From positions 1-64,000 of the IMG/VR virus record IMGVR_UViG_3300002220_000189: a stretch of DNA of 64,000 nt; one strand, written 5' to 3'. The stretch is from a virus. Lineage: Duplodnaviria; Caudoviricetes. Position 1 is the first letter of the stretch. Each line of letters opens with the position of its first letter. Shown piece after piece: positions 55,713 through 61,120 of this stretch. Made by a program: the position numbers and the translations under genes. The notes beneath the pieces are model-generated. The model did no database searches and was not told the DNA's origin. It saw only the letters and a list, made by a program, of their open reading frames with translations.

Positions 55713-56582
55713 TTAATATTCATTATATTTATCCTTTTCTTTGTTTTCTTTTTTAGGTGCATCATTATAAAATGTGTTAGTCGCAGTAAAAATTTTAAAT
55801 GATCCATCAATATCTTGCTGTATATTTTTTCTATTATCCATATATGTTTTCACAGAAGTTGAGTGAGAATTCATAGCACTATCTAATGAATTAGTAGCTG
55901 TCATACCAGAATTTGTATAACCTAAAACTTGACTATTTCCCGATGTTCCTGAAACTCCAGATCTTCCTGAAACTCCATTTAATGGTGATGCGCCAACATA
56001 TCCTATATTAGCATTTTGTTGTGCAAAATACATTGTATTAGTACCTGCAATACCCAAATCTTTAGATACTTCATCAACATCAAAATTAGATCCAATAAAT
56101 GAAAATGTCCATCTGTTTGTTTCTTTCATTTTATTCATCAATTCTACTATCTTTTTTCCATTATATTCTTTAGAACTATTCTCACATCCATCTGTAATAA
56201 TAACAACTAAATATGAAGTCTTTATATCATCAGCATCTTCATCCATATTTAATTTATTAATAGTGGTACCAATAGCATCATATAATGCAGTTAAACCTCC
56301 TAATTTATAATCATCATCTTTCATATCTCTTACATTATTGATATCTTTTTTCCAAAAAATAGGTTTATCAACTACTGTTTCAAATGTCACTAATGATACT
56401 GTAGTTTTCATAGTACTAGATATTTCTTTTAAATCTTTTAACTGTCTATTAAATGCTCCGGGAACTTCAATTTGTAAAGTACTCATTGAACCAGATCTAT
56501 CTATAATCATTACTATATGATTAATTAAATCAGATTCTTTTACCTTTTCATTTACTTTTATAATTAAATCTTCAAAACTCAT
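55713..56582 (-). CDS. vWA domain protein
   Basis: IDRSGSM MIDAS, TALYDAIG, ITDGCENSS. Confidence 0.9.
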   Translation of the reverse strand: MSFEDLIIKVNEKVKESDLINHIVMIIDRSGSMSTLQIEVPGAFNRQLKDLKEISSTMKTTVSLVTFETVVDKPIFWKKDINNVRDMKDDDYKLGGLTALYDAIGTTINKLNMDEDADDIKTSYLVVIITDGCENSSKEYNGKKIVELMNKMKETNRWTFSFIGSNFDVDEVSKDLGIAGTNTMYFAQQNANIGYVGASPLNGVSGRSGVSGTSGNSQVLGYTNSGMTATNSLDSAMNSHSTSVKTYMDNRKNIQQDIDGSFKIFTATNTFYNDAPKKENKEKDKYNEY

Positions 56583-56766
56583 TTACATCATCCCTCCTTA
56601 TACACTTATCCCCATAAAGTTCAATCGCTGCTTCATAGGATTTTTTCTTCTCATCATCTAAAATTTCGGCAAATACTTCTGCCAATTCGGGTATCATAAC
56701 TAATTTTTCGGTAGTTGGTTTACACCATGCTTGTGCAGCTCTTTGTAAAGAATATTCTGTTGGCAT
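56572..56766 (-). CDS. Hypothetical protein
   Basis: AAQAWC..T..LVMIPELAEVFAEIL. Confidence 0.55.
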   Translation of the reverse strand: MPTEYSLQRAAQAWCKPTTEKLVMIPELAEVFAEILDDEKKKSYEAAIELYGDKCIRRDDVNEF

Positions 56767-57671
56767 TATAATTCCCCCTTTATTATTTGTGCTGTATATT
56801 CTACATTCATTTCAGGATAAAACATCTCAATTTCTTGATATATATTATATATAAGACCTAAATATACATCATTATAATTCATCCCAATATACCAACTTAA
56901 ATCTTCTGGACTTATTATAATTCCTTTTAAACTAGCATAATATCTATGTTCAATAGGTAATAATGGAATACATCCTTTATTTAATGCGGTAAAAAATGTT
57001 GGATCAATATATCCGTCCTTATATTCAGGATTAGAACCTATTATAATAGTAAATCTTGCACTATCATAATCATCTTCTGTAGCATTGACTGAAAATGATT
57101 TATATTCATTAATTTTATTTGATATAATATTTTTACTATTATAACATATCAAATTTTTATGATATATTTTAGCGGATTCTACATAATAATTATCAAATGC
57201 TTTTATTCTATCTGATAATAACCTACCTTTATATAATAGAGTAATTTTTCTTTCATGATCATCAATTTCTATTTCTGAAAGAGTTTTTATTTTAGTCCAT
57301 AATGGTAAATAACGAAAACCAGATCTTAAATGAATAGATGGTTCAAAAAGTTTTACATTCATTTTTTTAAACCAATCAACTTCTTTGTTAGTTAATCCTC
57401 TAAATTTATCAAATATTATTGTCGGTATTTTCTTTTTAGTAGTATATTTTTCAATAATATCTACTTGTTTTAATAATTTATTAGCACTATTTTTATCATA
57501 TGTAGGTATCCAATCAATAAAAATGGCTTTAATATTACTATCAAAGCCATCTTCTATTTCAGTTACTTTTATAGATTTTGCTAATTCTCTGGATAACACA
57601 TAGTCAACATTGAACAATCCTAACATACTTAAAATCCTGAGAAAAGTATTTCTTCTATAGTTGTTCTCCAA
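56766..57671 (-). CDS. GT-B fold protein (resembles the C-terminal lobe of beta-glucosyltransferase/CgeB-type GTs)
   Basis: LLYKG, ARFTIIIG..EY..GYI...F.AL..GCIPL. Confidence 0.4.
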   Translation of the reverse strand: MENNYRRNTFLRILSMLGLFNVDYVLSRELAKSIKVTEIEDGFDSNIKAIFIDWIPTYDKNSANKLLKQVDIIEKYTTKKKIPTIIFDKFRGLTNKEVDWFKKMNVKLFEPSIHLRSGFRYLPLWTKIKTLSEIEIDDHERKITLLYKGRLLSDRIKAFDNYYVESAKIYHKNLICYNSKNIISNKINEYKSFSVNATEDDYDSARFTIIIGSNPEYKDGYIDPTFFTALNKGCIPLLPIEHRYYASLKGIIISPEDLSWYIGMNYNDVYLGLIYNIYQEIEMFYPEMNVEYTAQIIKGEL

Positions 57672-58990
57672 CCATTTTTATTTTCTACTTCATATTGCTG
57701 TATCCATTCAATAACAGCGTCTGAAAATCCATGAACACGAATCCAGTCTCTATCATATCCTATTCCATATTGATATGATGCAACATTTACCATATATGCA
57801 TTATTTATAGGTTGATAAAATGAAATATCTGTTTGTGATTGTTCATCAGTAAAAACTATTAATCTATCATAATCAGTAACATTATTTTGTAGATATTTCA
57901 TAGCTTTACCCATATCTGTTCCATTATGTTTTTGTGAATTTTTAATTTCATCACCTAAAGTAAATCCTCTTGCCGGTTCAATTCTTACAATATTGTCGGA
58001 AAATGAATAAATATCTACATCATCACAAATTTCACGAAGAAGAATTGCTAAACCATTAGCAACATCAATTCTATTCGTTTGTTCTTTTTGTAAATATTTT
58101 GTTCCCCAAAGATCACCCTCATAACCTAAAGGCCAGTCCATAGAACCAGAAACATCTACAACAAGAATAGTTTTACCATATAATTTTTGTTGACTAGAAA
58201 GACATTTCATCATGGCATTTTCTAATTCTTTTGAATATTCTTTTGCATATTTTTCAGCTGTTATGAATCTATATGGTAAAATCCTTTCAATTTTTATTTC
58301 ATTTAACGCTTGTTTAATAATTTCTGGCATAACACCGTCCCTCTGAAAATTACGTAAATTTCTAAGAACGGCAAGTGCGCCCATTTTATTATGTGTTAAT
58401 AAATCTTCCCATGATTGTTTTTTATCTGCACCCGAAGAAAGTCTTACTTCCCAAGTATCAGGAGATTCTAATGTTTTATTTGCCAATTTAGAAAATATTA
58501 CTGCCTGTTCAGTATCTTTAGGTTTAGGATGTGTTAGAAACATAATATCTCTAAGATCAATTTTACTATTATTATTCCATTTAGATAATTGATAAGCATC
58601 AAATTTGTTGAAAGCTAATGCTAATCCTTTTTTTACTTGAGCAGACAAAGGTTTTTTACCATCTTCCCAATATAAGTTAAGAAATTTCACCATTTCATCT
58701 GGTCTTTGTATAACTCTTGAAAGAACCTTACTTACAAGATTTGTACCTCTTTGTGTTGATGCTAGTTGTTTAACAAGGAGTAAAGGAACACTTCTTAATT
58801 TGAATTTTTCACGAGCTTCTATAGCAAGAGATGCTACTATTTTAGCATCTACTTCATTACATAAATCTTCAATTCTTTCTTTGATTGATGAACCACTTTC
58901 ATAGAAAGTATCTTCCCATAACATACAAGAAAGAACTGACCTTCTAAGTAATTGTTCAGAGGAAATTTTATGATTTTGTAGCATTTTCAC
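57629..58990 (-). CDS. rsr: Ro60/TROVE-domain RNA-binding protein with vWA domain
   Basis: LWEDTFYESG, R...LRSVP, IQRPDE, FDAYQLSKW, HPKP, TWE, ALRNLRN-like, LPYRF, VDVSGSM, GT, FTDEQ. Confidence 0.93.
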   Translation of the reverse strand: MKMLQNHKISSEQLLRRSVLSCMLWEDTFYESGSSIKERIEDLCNEVDAKIVASLAIEAREKFKLRSVPLLLVKQLASTQRGTNLVSKVLSRVIQRPDEMVKFLNLYWEDGKKPLSAQVKKGLALAFNKFDAYQLSKWNNNSKIDLRDIMFLTHPKPKDTEQAVIFSKLANKTLESPDTWEVRLSSGADKKQSWEDLLTHNKMGALAVLRNLRNFQRDGVMPEIIKQALNEIKIERILPYRFITAEKYAKEYSKELENAMMKCLSSQQKLYGKTILVVDVSGSMDWPLGYEGDLWGTKYLQKEQTNRIDVANGLAILLREICDDVDIYSFSDNIVRIEPARGFTLGDEIKNSQKHNGTDMGKAMKYLQNNVTDYDRLIVFTDEQSQTDISFYQPINNAYMVNVASYQYGIGYDRDWIRVHGFSDAVIEWIQQYEVENKNGWRTTIEEILFSGF

Positions 58991-59007
58991 ACTCCTTTTA
59001 TTTTTTA

Positions 59008-59089
59008 ATAGGGAACAGTCTAATAGAATCGTATCAAAGATTTGACAATCTTTTTCCTGGTCGATGTATTTCTATTATATCACCACTAT
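59008..59089 (-). ncRNA. Y RNA-like ncRNA copy 1
   Basis: AUAG-U-GG-UG...UAAUAGAA.UACAUCG...UUCUAUUA...UUCC-CUAU; adjacent to Ro60. Confidence 0.7.
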
Positions 59090-59106
59090 AATTAACATAT
59101 TGTTCA

Positions 59107-59170
59107 TAAGAGGGAATAAGTAATAAGAATATTTTATCTACCGATGTAATTCTTATTTTCACCACTCTTA
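59107..59170 (-). ncRNA. Y RNA-like ncRNA copy 2 (minimal, 64 nt)
   Basis: UAAGAG-U-GG-UG..AAUAAGAAU.UACAUCG...AUUCUUAUU...UUCC-CUCUUA. Confidence 0.7.
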
Positions 59171-59186
59171 TTGTAAATTATATAAA

Positions 59187-59289
59187 TGATGGGGTTCGAT
59201 CAAGGAGGCTCTAATTTAATACGCTTTTAATCTTTGTGTTACCAAAAAACTTTTCATATACGAAGAAATCCTTCTTTACGCCACCATCA
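59187..59289 (-). ncRNA. Y RNA-like ncRNA copy 3
   Basis: UGAUGG-U-GG-CG..AAGAAGG..UUCUUCG...CCUCCUU...CC-CCAUCA; 5' end coincides with the predicted TSS. Confidence 0.65.
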
Positions 59290-59294
59290 ATAAG

Positions 59295-59323
59295 ATTATA
59301 CCATAATAAATTTATATTGTCAA
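59295..59323 (-). promoter_or_regulatory. Consensus sigma70 promoter for the Y RNA-Ro60 operon
   Basis: TTGACA(59323-18)-N17-TATAAT(59300-295) with TG extension. Confidence 0.85.
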
Positions 59324-59324
59324 C

Positions 59325-59627
59325 TTATTTTTTCTTTAATTTTGGTTTTTCTGCTTTTTTTGATTCTTTTGGTTCATTTTTTATAACAATTTCTTCGATT
59401 TTTACATTTTTGCCCATATAAGCATTTACAATTCTGTCTCTTACTTCAAATGTTACAGAATCCAATCTACTATGCATACCAGCAATCATAATTCTAATAG
59501 GTCCAACAACTTTTTGAATATAATTCTCCGCTTCCTGTAAGTCATGTGCCGCAATAAATGTAGTCCATGAACTCATTGTTGATAATTTTTCATATTCAAT
59601 ACGAAAAACAAACATTTCTTTTGCCAT
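59325..59627 (-). CDS. Hypothetical protein
   Basis: GAGG RBS. Confidence 0.55.
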   Translation of the reverse strand: MAKEMFVFRIEYEKLSTMSSWTTFIAAHDLQEAENYIQKVVGPIRIMIAGMHSRLDSVTFEVRDRIVNAYMGKNVKIEEIVIKNEPKESKKAEKPKLKKK

Positions 59628-59959: not shown

Positions 59960-61120
59960 TTATTTCTTTTTGGTAGTTTTTCTTGTTTTCTTTACAGTAC
60001 TCTCATCTTCCACCACATCCTCTGTAACTTGTGTAGTTTCATCTGTCATAATATTCATTAATATTTCTTCTGCTTGTTTGAGATTTTCATTAACCGTTGA
60101 ATATCCTGTTGTTTTAAGCCATTCATTCAAATCGTCTAATATTTTATTTGATAATTCTTGATTTTCTTTCAATGCTATTGTAGAGTTTGCTTCACCTTGA
60201 GCTAATCTTTCACCTTTATATGAATACCATGAACCAGATTTTTCAACAAGTCCAGCTTCTACTGCTAAATTCAATATACCAGCATAAGAATTTATACCAT
60301 TTACATAATCTATTTCTATAGTCGCTTCCTGAAATGCTGGATAAAATCTATTTTTTGTAGTGTATGCTGTAATTACATTTCCTGTAACATTTTTATCATC
60401 ATCTTTCATTTGAGATTTTTTAAGTTGGATAAAAATTGATGGTAAATATTTAAAAGCCTTGCCACCACCAACTTCATCTGGTTTTGTAAATTTTCCTATT
60501 GAACCCGGTGCGCCATACATATGACCAGTTAAGATAGCAATAGAATTTTGTAAAACACAAATACCAGTAATCATTTTTATAATAGTTCTAATATTTCTCT
60601 GTAACTGACCCTGATCAGCTTTTGGTTCTCCTTCTAATGCATCTTCATATGTTTTTAAACGATCAAGACCACCAACAGAATCAAGTATAATAATCATTTT
60701 TTCCATACCAGAATTTTTTAATTGAGCCAGAAACACCATAATTTCTTCAACCCATTGACTATAAAAATAAATAGCTTTTGAAGTATCCAATCCCCATCTT
60801 TGACAGAATTCAGTTTTTAATCCACCTTCAGTATCAATCAATATAGGTTGAAATCCATTTTTTGATGCATCTGCTGCACATAATACAGCAAAAGAACTTT
60901 TAAAACTACCTTCTGGCCCTGCTATACCAACAACAGCTCTTGTAGGAATTCCAATATTAAGATTACCTGAAAGAATTCTGTTTAAATCTAATGCAGGCGT
61001 TTTTATTGTTTCAGTTATATTAGCAATATCAGATTCTGTCATAAGAGAAATATGAGTACCTTTTATATTTTTTCTAACGGCTGCTAGCAGTTTTTCAATC
61101 TTATCATTCATTCTTTTCAT
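59960..61120 (-). CDS. uvsX: RecA-like recombinase
   Basis: AGPEGSFKS, IDTEG, ILDSVG, GGGKA..Y, KNRF, SGSWY. Confidence 0.92.
   Translation of the reverse strand: MKRMNDKIEKLLAAVRKNIKGTHISLMTESDIANITETIKTPALDLNRILSGNLNIGIPTRAVVGIAGPEGSFKSSFAVLCAADASKNGFQPILIDTEGGLKTEFCQRWGLDTSKAIYFYSQWVEEIMVFLAQLKNSGMEKMIIILDSVGGLDRLKTYEDALEGEPKADQGQLQRNIRTIIKMITGICVLQNSIAILTGHMYGAPGSIGKFTKPDEVGGGKAFKYLPSIFIQLKKSQMKDDDKNVTGNVITAYTTKNRFYPAFQEATIEIDYVNGINSYAGILNLAVEAGLVEKSGSWYSYKGERLAQGEANSTIALKENQELSNKILDDLNEWLKTTGYSTVNENLKQAEEILMNIMTDETTQVTEDVVEDESTVKKTRKTTKKK

What the first reader, a model, noticed from the sequence alone, without database searches (positions are those of the whole stretch)
57629..59323. 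Phage Ro60 operon led by a tandem array of three minimal Y-RNA-like RNAs
Seen: a consensus TTGACA-N17-TATAAT promoter places +1 at about 59289, the 5' end of the first of three units (103, 64 and 82 nt) preceding the Ro60/TROVE gene. The units differ in sequence but share one architecture with compensatory changes. Each has a terminal helix (AUAG/CUAU, UAAGAG/CUCUUA, UGAUGG/CCAUCA) with a single bulged U before GG:CC, a second helix (UAAUAGAA/UUCUAUUA, AAUAAGAAU/AUUCUUAUU, AAGAAGG/CCUCCUU), a conserved UACAUCG/UUCUUCG linker and a variable apical insert. Known: Ro60 binds Y RNAs via a bulged helix; bacterial YrlA RNAs lie next to rsr and carry a tRNA-like domain. Inference: these are Y RNAs lacking the tRNA-like module, expressed early. 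They may program a phage Ro60 RNP for RNA protection or decay, or act as decoys against host RNA-targeting defence. No rtcB/rtcR is present in this window; the operon continues into a GT-like gene and a vWA gene.
Basis: partly seen in the sequence, partly recalled or inferred. Interest (0 to 1): 0.88.

Follow-up and report, generated by a model that had tools for sequence, protein, structure and literature searches.

The report
Three minimal Y RNAs before phage Ro60
An uncultured AT-rich phage carries a gene for the ring-shaped RNA-binding protein Ro60, preceded by three small hairpin RNAs with the conserved Ro60-binding "handle" of bacterial Y RNAs but no tRNA-like part; this is a real but fairly ordinary member of a widespread, already known protein-RNA partnership.

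Summary
A perfect TTGACA-17-TGnTATAAT promoter (59323-59295, minus strand) is followed by three hairpin units and then a TROVE+vWA gene (58984-57629). The predicted fold of that protein matches solved Ro60 structures.

The key test was a covariance model built only from 19 RNA units beside distant TROVE genes, with no window sequence.

The same model finds 375 units beside TROVE genes in phage, metagenome and bacterial loci, all on the gene's strand. Both helices covary strongly. The bulged U, the GG:CC pairs and a UUACUUC motif are nearly invariant.

The longer units in relatives carry T and D arms and match Rfam YrlA below its threshold. The window's units have only the basal module, so they resemble YrlB. 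The 127-kb record holds no tRNA-like RNA.

Transcription, processing, Ro60 binding and any anti-defence role remain untested.

Phage Ro60 with Y-like RNAs is published (Chen 2014; Thermus phage phiLo 2025). This scan has also noted Ro60-like genes with RNA arrays in at least 190 other genomes. I rate it a new member of a known kind, of moderate interest.

The parts
59295..59323 (-). Sigma-70-type promoter: TTGACA, 17-nt spacer ending in TGG (extended -10), TATAAT. The predicted start is about 59288, at the 5' foot of unit 1.
   Evidence: 12/12 match. One of four perfect sites in the 127-kb record. Activity was not tested.
59185..59291 (-). Unit 1 (core 59289-59187, 103 nt). Terminal helix UGAUGG/CCAUCA, bulged U, GG:CC, GGCGUAAAG motif, imperfect second helix, UUUCUUC motif, and an apical insert of about 60 nt with no tRNA-like features.
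   Evidence: Model R1: 19.8 bits, E 0.003 in the window. Fold. This is the weakest of the three matches.
59105..59172 (-). Unit 2 (core 59170-59107, 64 nt). A canonical minimal unit: UAAGAG/CUCUUA, bulged U, GG:CC, GGUGAAAA, a 9-bp second helix, UUACAUC motif and a short loop.
   Evidence: Model R1: 42.7 bits, E 1e-9. Close counterpart at L040:1244-1324.
59004..59093 (-). Unit 3 (core 59089-59008, 82 nt). AUAG/CUAU, bulged U, GG:CC, GGUGAUAU, an 8-bp second helix, AUACAUC motif and an apical 7-bp hairpin.
   Evidence: Model R1: 33.1 bits, E 6e-7. Its counterpart L040:1338-1448 differs by four two-sided pair changes in the second helix (read by eye).
57629..58984 (-). Ro60 homologue (TROVE HEAT-repeat ring + vWA domain with DVSGS MIDAS motif), 451 aa. 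AAGGAG ribosome-binding site at 58997-58992, 7 nt before the ATG at 58984.
   Evidence: Pfam TROVE E 2.6e-20, with vWA_Ro60 (26.4 bits against 27.7) and VWA_2 (25.7 against 27) both just under their cut-offs. PHROG 850 'RNA-binding protein' E 2e-45. PDB 9KOP/9L5Y phage phiLo Ro60 E 1.3e-22. AF2 model pLDDT 84.6 with TM 0.74 to 9KOP and 0.57-0.65 to Xenopus, human and Deinococcus Ro60.
56766..57626 (-). Downstream gene of 286 aa, probably a GT-B-type glycosyltransferase. It starts 5 nt after the Ro60 stop codon.
   Evidence: No Pfam or PHROG hit. ESM Atlas feature and structure neighbours are glycosyltransferases, which is a lead only. A 37%-identical gene follows TROVE in L040/L042. Not generally linked to TROVE in other loci.
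55713..56582 (-). Separate vWA-domain protein, 289 aa, further downstream on the same strand.
   Evidence: Pfam VWA E 6e-7. PHROG 7371. Only one weak relative in the other loci (L020), so it is probably not part of the RNP module.

Best explanation
The three units are genes for Y-RNA-type partner RNAs of the phage's own Ro60 protein, of the short YrlB-like kind. Each keeps the Ro60-binding handle: a terminal helix formed by the 5' and 3' ends, one bulged U, two G:C pairs, an internal loop with GGYG(A/U)A on the 5' side and a U-rich 3' side, a second helix, and a UUACUUC-like motif. None has the tRNA-like effector module of YrlA.

Inferred steps:
1. Host RNA polymerase starts at the strong sigma-70 promoter early in infection.
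2. It reads through the three units into the Ro60 gene. No terminator lies between them.
3. Host RNases trim the leader down to the stable hairpins.
4. Each hairpin binds the outer basic surface of a Ro60 ring.

The resulting particles most likely gate access of other RNAs to the ring. Through the variable apical parts of units 1 and 3 they may tether a host exoribonuclease such as PNPase, reshaping decay or survival of structured RNA during infection.

What is shown here: family membership of the protein and of the RNAs, covariation, and linkage. What is not shown: transcription, processing, binding and the downstream function.
For: (1) Model R1 was built from 19 units of other genomes, with no window sequence. 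It hits only the three units in 64 kb on both strands and in the whole 127-kb record.

(2) R1 finds 250 units in 99 sources (98 viral and metagenome loci plus the window), 19 in six cultured phages and 106 in 28 bacterial loci. Every one is on the TROVE strand, and most lie directly upstream.

(3) Covariation:
- On the structure-blind MAFFT alignment, 87.8% of cells pair, against 61% when shuffled and 44-52% when slid.
- On 120 distinct model-aligned units, 94.8% pair against 63%. All 16 pairs change on both sides. There are 640 two-sided cells against 198 expected.

(4) Near-invariant positions: bulged U 119/120, G after GGY 120/120, UACUU at least 114/120.

(5) The long units of relatives match Rfam YrlA RF02553 at 31-48 bits. 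Some span the full model. The YrlA model's outer helix is R1's second helix.

(6) The protein is a Ro60 homologue by sequence and fold. Four of the eight basic residues whose mutation weakens Yrl2 binding in phiLo Ro60 are K/R here and invariant or nearly so in the family: K118, K119, R145, K154.

(7) A syntenic relative, L040, has orf100, three units, TROVE and the GT-like gene, and keeps three tRNA-less units. Unit 3 and its counterpart differ by four compensatory pairs.

(8) From the literature: Ro60 binds Y RNAs, phage Ro60 binds upstream Yrl RNAs in vitro and can assemble with host PNPase (PMC12135203), and bacterial YrlA/YrlB carry a GNCGAAN0-1G motif near the 5' end (PMC4201824).
Against: - There is no expression data.
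- No Rfam family reaches threshold in the window.
- The published CGAA motif is only approximated: GGCGUAAAG, GGUGAAAAU and GGUGAUAUA.
- Unit 1 scores weakly (19.8 bits) and has a mismatch in its second helix.
- Folding energies are not significantly better than shuffles.
- Only half of the mapped RNA-contact residues are conserved.
- The units lie in the leader of the Ro60 mRNA, so action in cis is not excluded.
- The record is about 60% complete, so a tRNA-like Y RNA could lie on the missing part.
Confidence: 0.8

Rival explanations
1. The hairpins act in cis as an autoregulatory leader. Ro60 protein binds its own mRNA's 5' untranslated region at Y-RNA-like sites and sets its own translation or stability, and no free small RNAs are made.
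For: All three units lie between the promoter and the Ro60 start codon, on the same strand and with no terminator. Unit 3 ends 23 nt before the start codon. Most relatives also have the units upstream.
Against: In other loci the same units lie downstream of the gene (L004, L010, L017, L074, crAss001, Microcystis phage). Some are separated from it by an ORF (L040) or lie about 1-3 kb upstream (L022, L090). Salmonella YrlA/YrlB lie 3' of rsr and are free RNAs bound by Rsr (10.1101/312249). Arrays of up to eight units are hard to explain as operators.
Confidence: 0.1
2. The units are decaying remnants of YrlA genes that lost their tRNA-like domain and no longer function.
For: Their motifs are degenerate relative to the family consensus: UACAUC instead of UACUUC, an A:U closing pair seen once in 120 units, and no exact CGAA. 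Unit 1 scores low.
Against: Minimal units of 66-77 nt are the commonest size class in the family, so small size is not decay. The syntenic L040 lineage keeps three tRNA-less units with compensatory changes although its Ro60 is only 47% identical. G:C to A:U shifts fit a 27% G+C genome.
Confidence: 0.06
3. The units are chance AT-rich hairpins, or another element such as terminators, RNase III sites or DNA-level repeats, that happens to lie beside a TROVE gene.
For: Folding z-scores are unremarkable. AT-rich DNA forms many hairpins. My first hand-made descriptor gave 1.2 hits per shuffled window.
Against: An independent covariance model finds exactly these three sites. The family shows strand-specific linkage and two-sided covariation. 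No terminator-like site is present.
Confidence: 0.02

Closest known systems
Bacterial YrlB / YrlA Y RNAs with Rsr (Salmonella rsr-yrlBA-rtcBA, M. smegmatis, 22 phages; Chen et al. 2014, PMC4201824; Rfam RF02553)
   Same: The RNAs are encoded next to the Ro60 gene on the same strand. A helix is formed by the 5' and 3' ends. A G-rich 5' motif resembles GNCGAAN0-1G, and the family consensus GGCG(A/U)AG fits it. A YUAY motif follows the second helix. A short RNA (YrlB-like) often sits beside a long one (YrlA-like).
   Different: All three window RNAs lack the T, D and acceptor-like arms that define YrlA, and none matches RF02553. Chen et al. reported at least one tRNA-like Y RNA per species. No RtcB/RtcA/RtcR is linked. 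The units lie upstream rather than downstream of the gene. The CGAA motif is degenerate.
Thermus phage phiLo Ro60 with Yrl1/Yrl2 (PMC12135203; PDB 9KOP, 9L5Y)
   Same: A phage-encoded Ro60 with Y-like hairpin RNAs directly upstream of the gene and without a full tRNA-like domain. It is the closest solved structure to the window protein (E 1.3e-22; TM 0.74).
   Different: Protein identity is only about 24%. phiLo has two RNAs and the window has three. I did not test whether Yrl1/Yrl2 fit model R1. The window RNAs have not been shown to bind anything.
Metazoan and Deinococcus Y RNAs (hY1-5, Xenopus Y3, Yrn1)
   Same: A modular design: a conserved bulged terminal helix that binds Ro60, plus a variable loop that binds effectors.
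   Different: The sequence motif and the bulge differ: a bulged C in GGUCCGA against a bulged U before GG here. No match to Rfam Y_RNA appeared in the permissive scan of 58900-59400.

Membership tests
Ro60 / Rsr protein (TROVE + vWA) | TROVE (HEAT-repeat ring) domain, Pfam PF05731 | tested here: met
   73.5 bits against a cut-off of 23, E 2.6e-20. PHROG 850 E 2e-45.
Ro60 / Rsr protein (TROVE + vWA) | C-terminal vWA domain with a MIDAS DxSxS motif | tested here: met
   vWA_Ro60 26.4 bits and VWA_2 25.7 bits, both just under their cut-offs. DVSGS has D277, S279 and S281 invariant across 37 homologues. The model shows a beta-alpha-beta domain from residue 268 to 437.
Ro60 / Rsr protein (TROVE + vWA) | Overall fold like solved Ro60 rings | tested here: met
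   AF2 pLDDT 84.6. Foldseek gives 9KOP E 7e-20 with TM 0.74, and Xenopus 1YVP, human 9NEN and Deinococcus 2NVO E 1e-11 to 1e-14 with TM 0.57-0.65.
Ro60 / Rsr protein (TROVE + vWA) | Basic residues that contact Y-like RNA in phiLo Ro60 (R137, K141, K142, R163, R169, R173, R178, K193) | tested here: inconclusive
   Four of eight align to K/R: K118, K119, R145 and K154. These include the two with the largest effect (K142, R178). Three align to S, S and F, and one falls in an insertion. The numbering offset of 8 was inferred from the R/K pattern.
Y RNA of the YrlA/YrlB lineage (Ro60-binding module) | Encoded beside the Ro60 gene and on the same strand | tested here: met
   The units lie 23-305 nt upstream on the same strand. 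The same holds for 375 of 375 family units.
Y RNA of the YrlA/YrlB lineage (Ro60-binding module) | Basal module (terminal helix, bulge, conserved internal loop, second helix) matching a structure model of the family | tested here: met
   R1, built without window sequence, scores 42.7, 33.1 and 19.8 bits and gives no other hit in the window.
Y RNA of the YrlA/YrlB lineage (Ro60-binding module) | GNCGAAN0-1G motif near the 5' end (PMC4201824) | tested here: inconclusive
   The window has GGCGUAAAG, GGUGAAAAU and GGUGAUAUA, none a literal CGAA. The family consensus is GGCG(U/A)AG, with A in 46 and U in 70 of 120 units.
YrlA (Rfam RF02553) | tRNA-like domain with T arm, acceptor-like stem and D arm | tested here: not met
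   No RF02553 hit in the window at gathering score, around the units at E up to 10, or in the 127-kb record at E up to 10. ARAGORN finds nothing. Relatives' long units do hit RF02553.
Y RNA (any) | Stable discrete small RNA bound by Ro60 in vivo or in vitro | not testable with these tools
No RNA-protein docking tool is available.

The most novel reading that the evidence does not exclude
The handle-only units (66-77 nt, the commonest size class beside TROVE genes) may be a distinct functional class rather than reduced YrlA. They could be gatekeeper RNAs that load or close the Ro60 ring. On this reading, a phage that carries only such units uses Ro60 without any tRNA mimic. It might, for example, capture host PNPase or shield phage RNAs from host RNA-targeting defences. 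The highly conserved UUACUUC loop would then be a second, undescribed protein-contact site.
Probability: 0.2. Interest if true: 0.6.

Novelty: new member of a known kind. Interest (0 to 1): 0.4.

Why it matters
- It adds a well-supported phage example of the Ro60/Y-RNA particle from a phage lineage with no cultured relative. Its RecA-like protein is at most 29% identical to any GenBank phage.
- A tRNA-like module is not obligatory. About a fifth of the surveyed loci, including this one, carry only handle-type RNAs.
- The work produced a covariance model of the basal Ro60-binding module, which Rfam's YrlA model does not cover. It recovers several hundred unannotated RNAs in phages and bacteria. 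In cultured phages some of them are mis-annotated as tRNA genes, for example tRNA-Thr in Xanthomonas phage 10KY502B and tRNA-Gln in CcrColossus.
- The three small units are convenient substrates for binding and structural studies of a compact 451-aa Ro60.

Tried and rejected
- Rfam at gathering score over the whole window gave no hit. Rfam at E up to 10 around the units gave only chance-level hits: SIB_RNA 17.8 bits against 56, and Bacteroid-trp. I rejected these.
- ARAGORN found no tRNA or tmRNA in the window or the whole record.
- blastn of the locus against GenBank phages gave no match.
- Thermodynamic stability is not significant, so I did not use it as evidence.
- My first hand-written descriptor was derived from the window itself. 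It is therefore circular, and it missed unit 1. I replaced it with a model built from relatives.
- I considered whether each unit has its own promoter. Unit 2 has TATAAT 6 nt upstream (59182-59177), but the best -35 (TTGATC) has a 15-nt spacer. Unit 3 has no fitting -10. This idea is not supported, so a single transcript with processing is preferred.
- Linkage of the downstream GT-like and vWA genes to TROVE holds only in the L040 lineage (GT-like) or hardly at all (vWA). I do not treat them as core parts.
- PMC10870794 (a review) is not held.
Full report
WHAT IS THERE

On the minus strand, an upstream 100-aa ORF ends at 59325. The 340-nt gap that follows begins with a perfect sigma-70 promoter: TTGACA at 59323-59318, a 17-nt spacer ending in TGG, and TATAAT at 59300-59295. 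Only four such perfect sites exist in the whole 127-kb record.

Three hairpin units follow, with cores at 59289-59187, 59170-59107 and 59089-59008. After them come an AAGGAG ribosome-binding site and the ATG at 58984 of a 451-aa ORF that ends at 57629. No terminator-like site lies in between.

One exception is the second helix of unit 1, which has an A.C mismatch. Folding energies are not better than shuffles in a convincing way: z = -0.5 for the whole leader and -1.9, -2.0 and -0.7 for the units. The case therefore cannot rest on stability.

THE PROTEIN

- Pfam gives TROVE (73.5 bits), plus vWA_Ro60 and VWA_2 just under their cut-offs.
- PHROGs gives family 850, 'RNA-binding protein'.
- The only solved structures found by sequence are the Ro60 of Thermus phage phiLo (9KOP and 9L5Y, E 1.3e-22, nearly full length).
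- An AlphaFold2 model from 37 homologues has pLDDT 84.6. It matches 9KOP at TM 0.74. The next matches are Xenopus, human and Deinococcus Ro60 at TM 0.57-0.65, with E down to 3e-14.
- Mutating any of eight basic residues weakens Yrl2 binding in phiLo Ro60 (PMC12135203). Four of them align to K/R here: K118, K119, R145 and K154. These are invariant or nearly so in the family.

The family is very large. More than 7,900 proteins score at E <= 1e-30. It occurs in phages, in viral and metagenome contigs, and at about 50% identity in Acidobacteriota, Alphaproteobacteria and other bacterial genomes.

THE RNAS: AN INDEPENDENT TEST

Relatives of the gene have noncoding gaps of 200-800 nt upstream. By eye, these gaps hold repeats of one plan:
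- helix 1, a bulged U, then GG;
- YG(A/U)AGA;
- helix 2, then (U)UACUUC;
- a variable insert;
- helix 2', then CG.UUGUU, CC and helix 1'.

I aligned 19 such units from 14 loci with MAFFT (A1), none of them from the window. I wrote the two helices as the structure and built covariance model R1.

Searched over the whole window on both strands, R1 returns exactly three matches. Nothing else matches in the 127-kb record. This shows that the units belong to a family defined elsewhere.

THE FAMILY

R1 finds the following, every unit on the TROVE strand:
- 250 units in 99 sources, that is 98 viral and metagenome loci plus the window;
- 19 units in six cultured phages: Xanthomonas 10KY502B, Caulobacter CcrColossus, crAss001, Microcystis Mvi-JY20 and Rhizobium TM30, with none in Ralstonia RsoM2USA;
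- 106 units in 28 bacterial loci.

Most units lie directly upstream of the gene, and some lie downstream.

Covariation is strong.
- On the structure-blind alignment A1, 87.8% of cells pair. The figure is 61% when the 3' letters are shuffled and 44-52% when partners are slid.
- On 120 distinct model-aligned units, 94.8% pair against 63%. All 16 pairs show two-sided changes, with 640 such cells against 198 expected.
- This includes GG:CC changing to GC:GC.

Near-invariant unpaired positions are the bulged U (119/120), the G after GGY (120/120) and UACUU (at least 114/120).

LINK TO KNOWN Y RNAS

Unit lengths have two main modes, 66-77 nt and 130-149 nt. The long units carry T-arm and D-arm motifs. 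They match Rfam YrlA (RF02553) at 31-48 bits, below its gathering score of 69. Several match over the full model.

In that alignment, the outer helix of the YrlA model is R1's helix 2. R1 is therefore the Ro60-binding base of YrlA-type RNAs, extended by helix 1 and the bulge. This also explains why Rfam cannot see units that have only the base.

The family consensus GGCG(A/U)AG fits the GNCGAAN0-1G motif, and UUAC fits the YUAY motif. Chen et al. (PMC4201824) described both for YrlA and YrlB.

The usual locus has one short and one long unit, like Salmonella yrlB-yrlA. About a fifth of the surveyed loci have only units without T or D motifs: L003 with six, L052 with five, and L006, L066 and L040 with three each. 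Some of these contigs are short.

THE WINDOW'S OWN LINEAGE

L040, L042 and L043 share gene order with the window: orf100, the units, TROVE and the GT-like gene. Their Ro60 is 47% identical. They also have three tRNA-less units.

Unit 2 is close to L040:1244-1324. Unit 3 corresponds to L040:1338-1448 and differs from it by four two-sided pair changes in helix 2. Both lineages share the UACA(U/A)C variant of the loop motif.

The window's departures from the consensus (A:U for G:C pairs, no literal CGAA) fit a genome of 27% G+C. The record has no tRNA, no YrlA hit and no RtcB. CheckV rates it only about 60% complete.

HOW IT PROBABLY WORKS

The following is inferred, not shown.
1. The host polymerase transcribes the array and the Ro60 gene from the strong promoter.
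2. Host RNases trim the transcript to the stable hairpins.
3. Each hairpin binds a Ro60 ring through the bulged helix and internal loop.

This matches what is shown for Xenopus Ro60 with Y RNA and for phiLo Ro60 with Yrl2. The variable apical parts of units 1 and 3 may contact an effector such as host PNPase, as shown in vitro for phiLo. Unit 2 may only gate the ring.

A cis-regulatory role of the leader cannot be excluded. It is made less likely by loci where the units lie downstream of the gene or far from it.

NOVELTY

The following are already published:
- phage Ro60 genes with YrlA-type RNAs (22 phages in Chen 2014, including CcrColossus);
- a phage Ro60 with two upstream tRNA-less Yrl RNAs (phiLo, 2025).

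This scan's own notes list Ro60-like genes with RNA arrays in at least 190 other genomes. I did not rely on those notes.

The finding is therefore a sound new member of a known kind, with some extra points of modest interest:
- the array is entirely tRNA-less;
- the phage lineage is uncultured and distant;
- the basal module model covers a part that Rfam lacks.

LIMITS

The closest relatives (59-64% identity) and any expression data could therefore not be examined.

Noticed in passing
L106:2256-2391 (Xanthomonas phage 10KY502B) and L107:1598-1766 (Caulobacter phage CcrColossus): The annotated 'tRNA-Thr' (L106:2262-2329) and 'tRNA-Gln' (L107:1604-1671) lie inside R1 units. They are most likely the tRNA-like domains of YrlA-type Y RNAs, not real tRNA genes. 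CcrColossus has eight units in a row upstream of its TROVE gene.
   Followed up: partly
L185:1490-2039 (Desulfococcaceae bacterium HSG8): Three 66-nt minimal units are spaced exactly 242 nt apart upstream of a bacterial TROVE gene. This looks like a tandem duplication of a longer repeat unit.
   Followed up: no
window 56766-57626 (-): The gene directly after Ro60 has no Pfam or PHROG hit. Its nearest ESM Atlas clusters and structural neighbours are GT-B glycosyltransferases, including a cluster with the T4 glucosyltransferase family. A 37%-identical gene follows TROVE in L040/L042.
   Followed up: partly
window 59309-59316 (-): TATAAATT, one base off the T4-type late-promoter motif TATAAATA that other notes on this genome mention, lies inside the spacer of the sigma-70 promoter. 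It could be a nested late start or simply AT-rich chance.
   Followed up: no
L040:974-1240: In the syntenic relative, a small ORF of about 88 aa is inserted between the first and second Y-like units. Each of its three units is preceded by a -10-like hexamer 5-7 nt upstream, so that array may be transcribed in pieces.
   Followed up: no
window 59960-61120 (-): The RecA/UvsX-like protein is at most 29% identical to any GenBank phage, and the whole locus has no blastn match. The phage belongs to a lineage without cultured relatives.
   Followed up: partly
L007, L019, L035, L109, L110: Real tRNA genes often cluster next to the TROVE gene and its Y-like units, for example six tRNAs in L007 and three after the gene in Microcystis phage Mvi-JY20. 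This suggests a shared tRNA/Y-RNA expression region in many phages.
   Followed up: no
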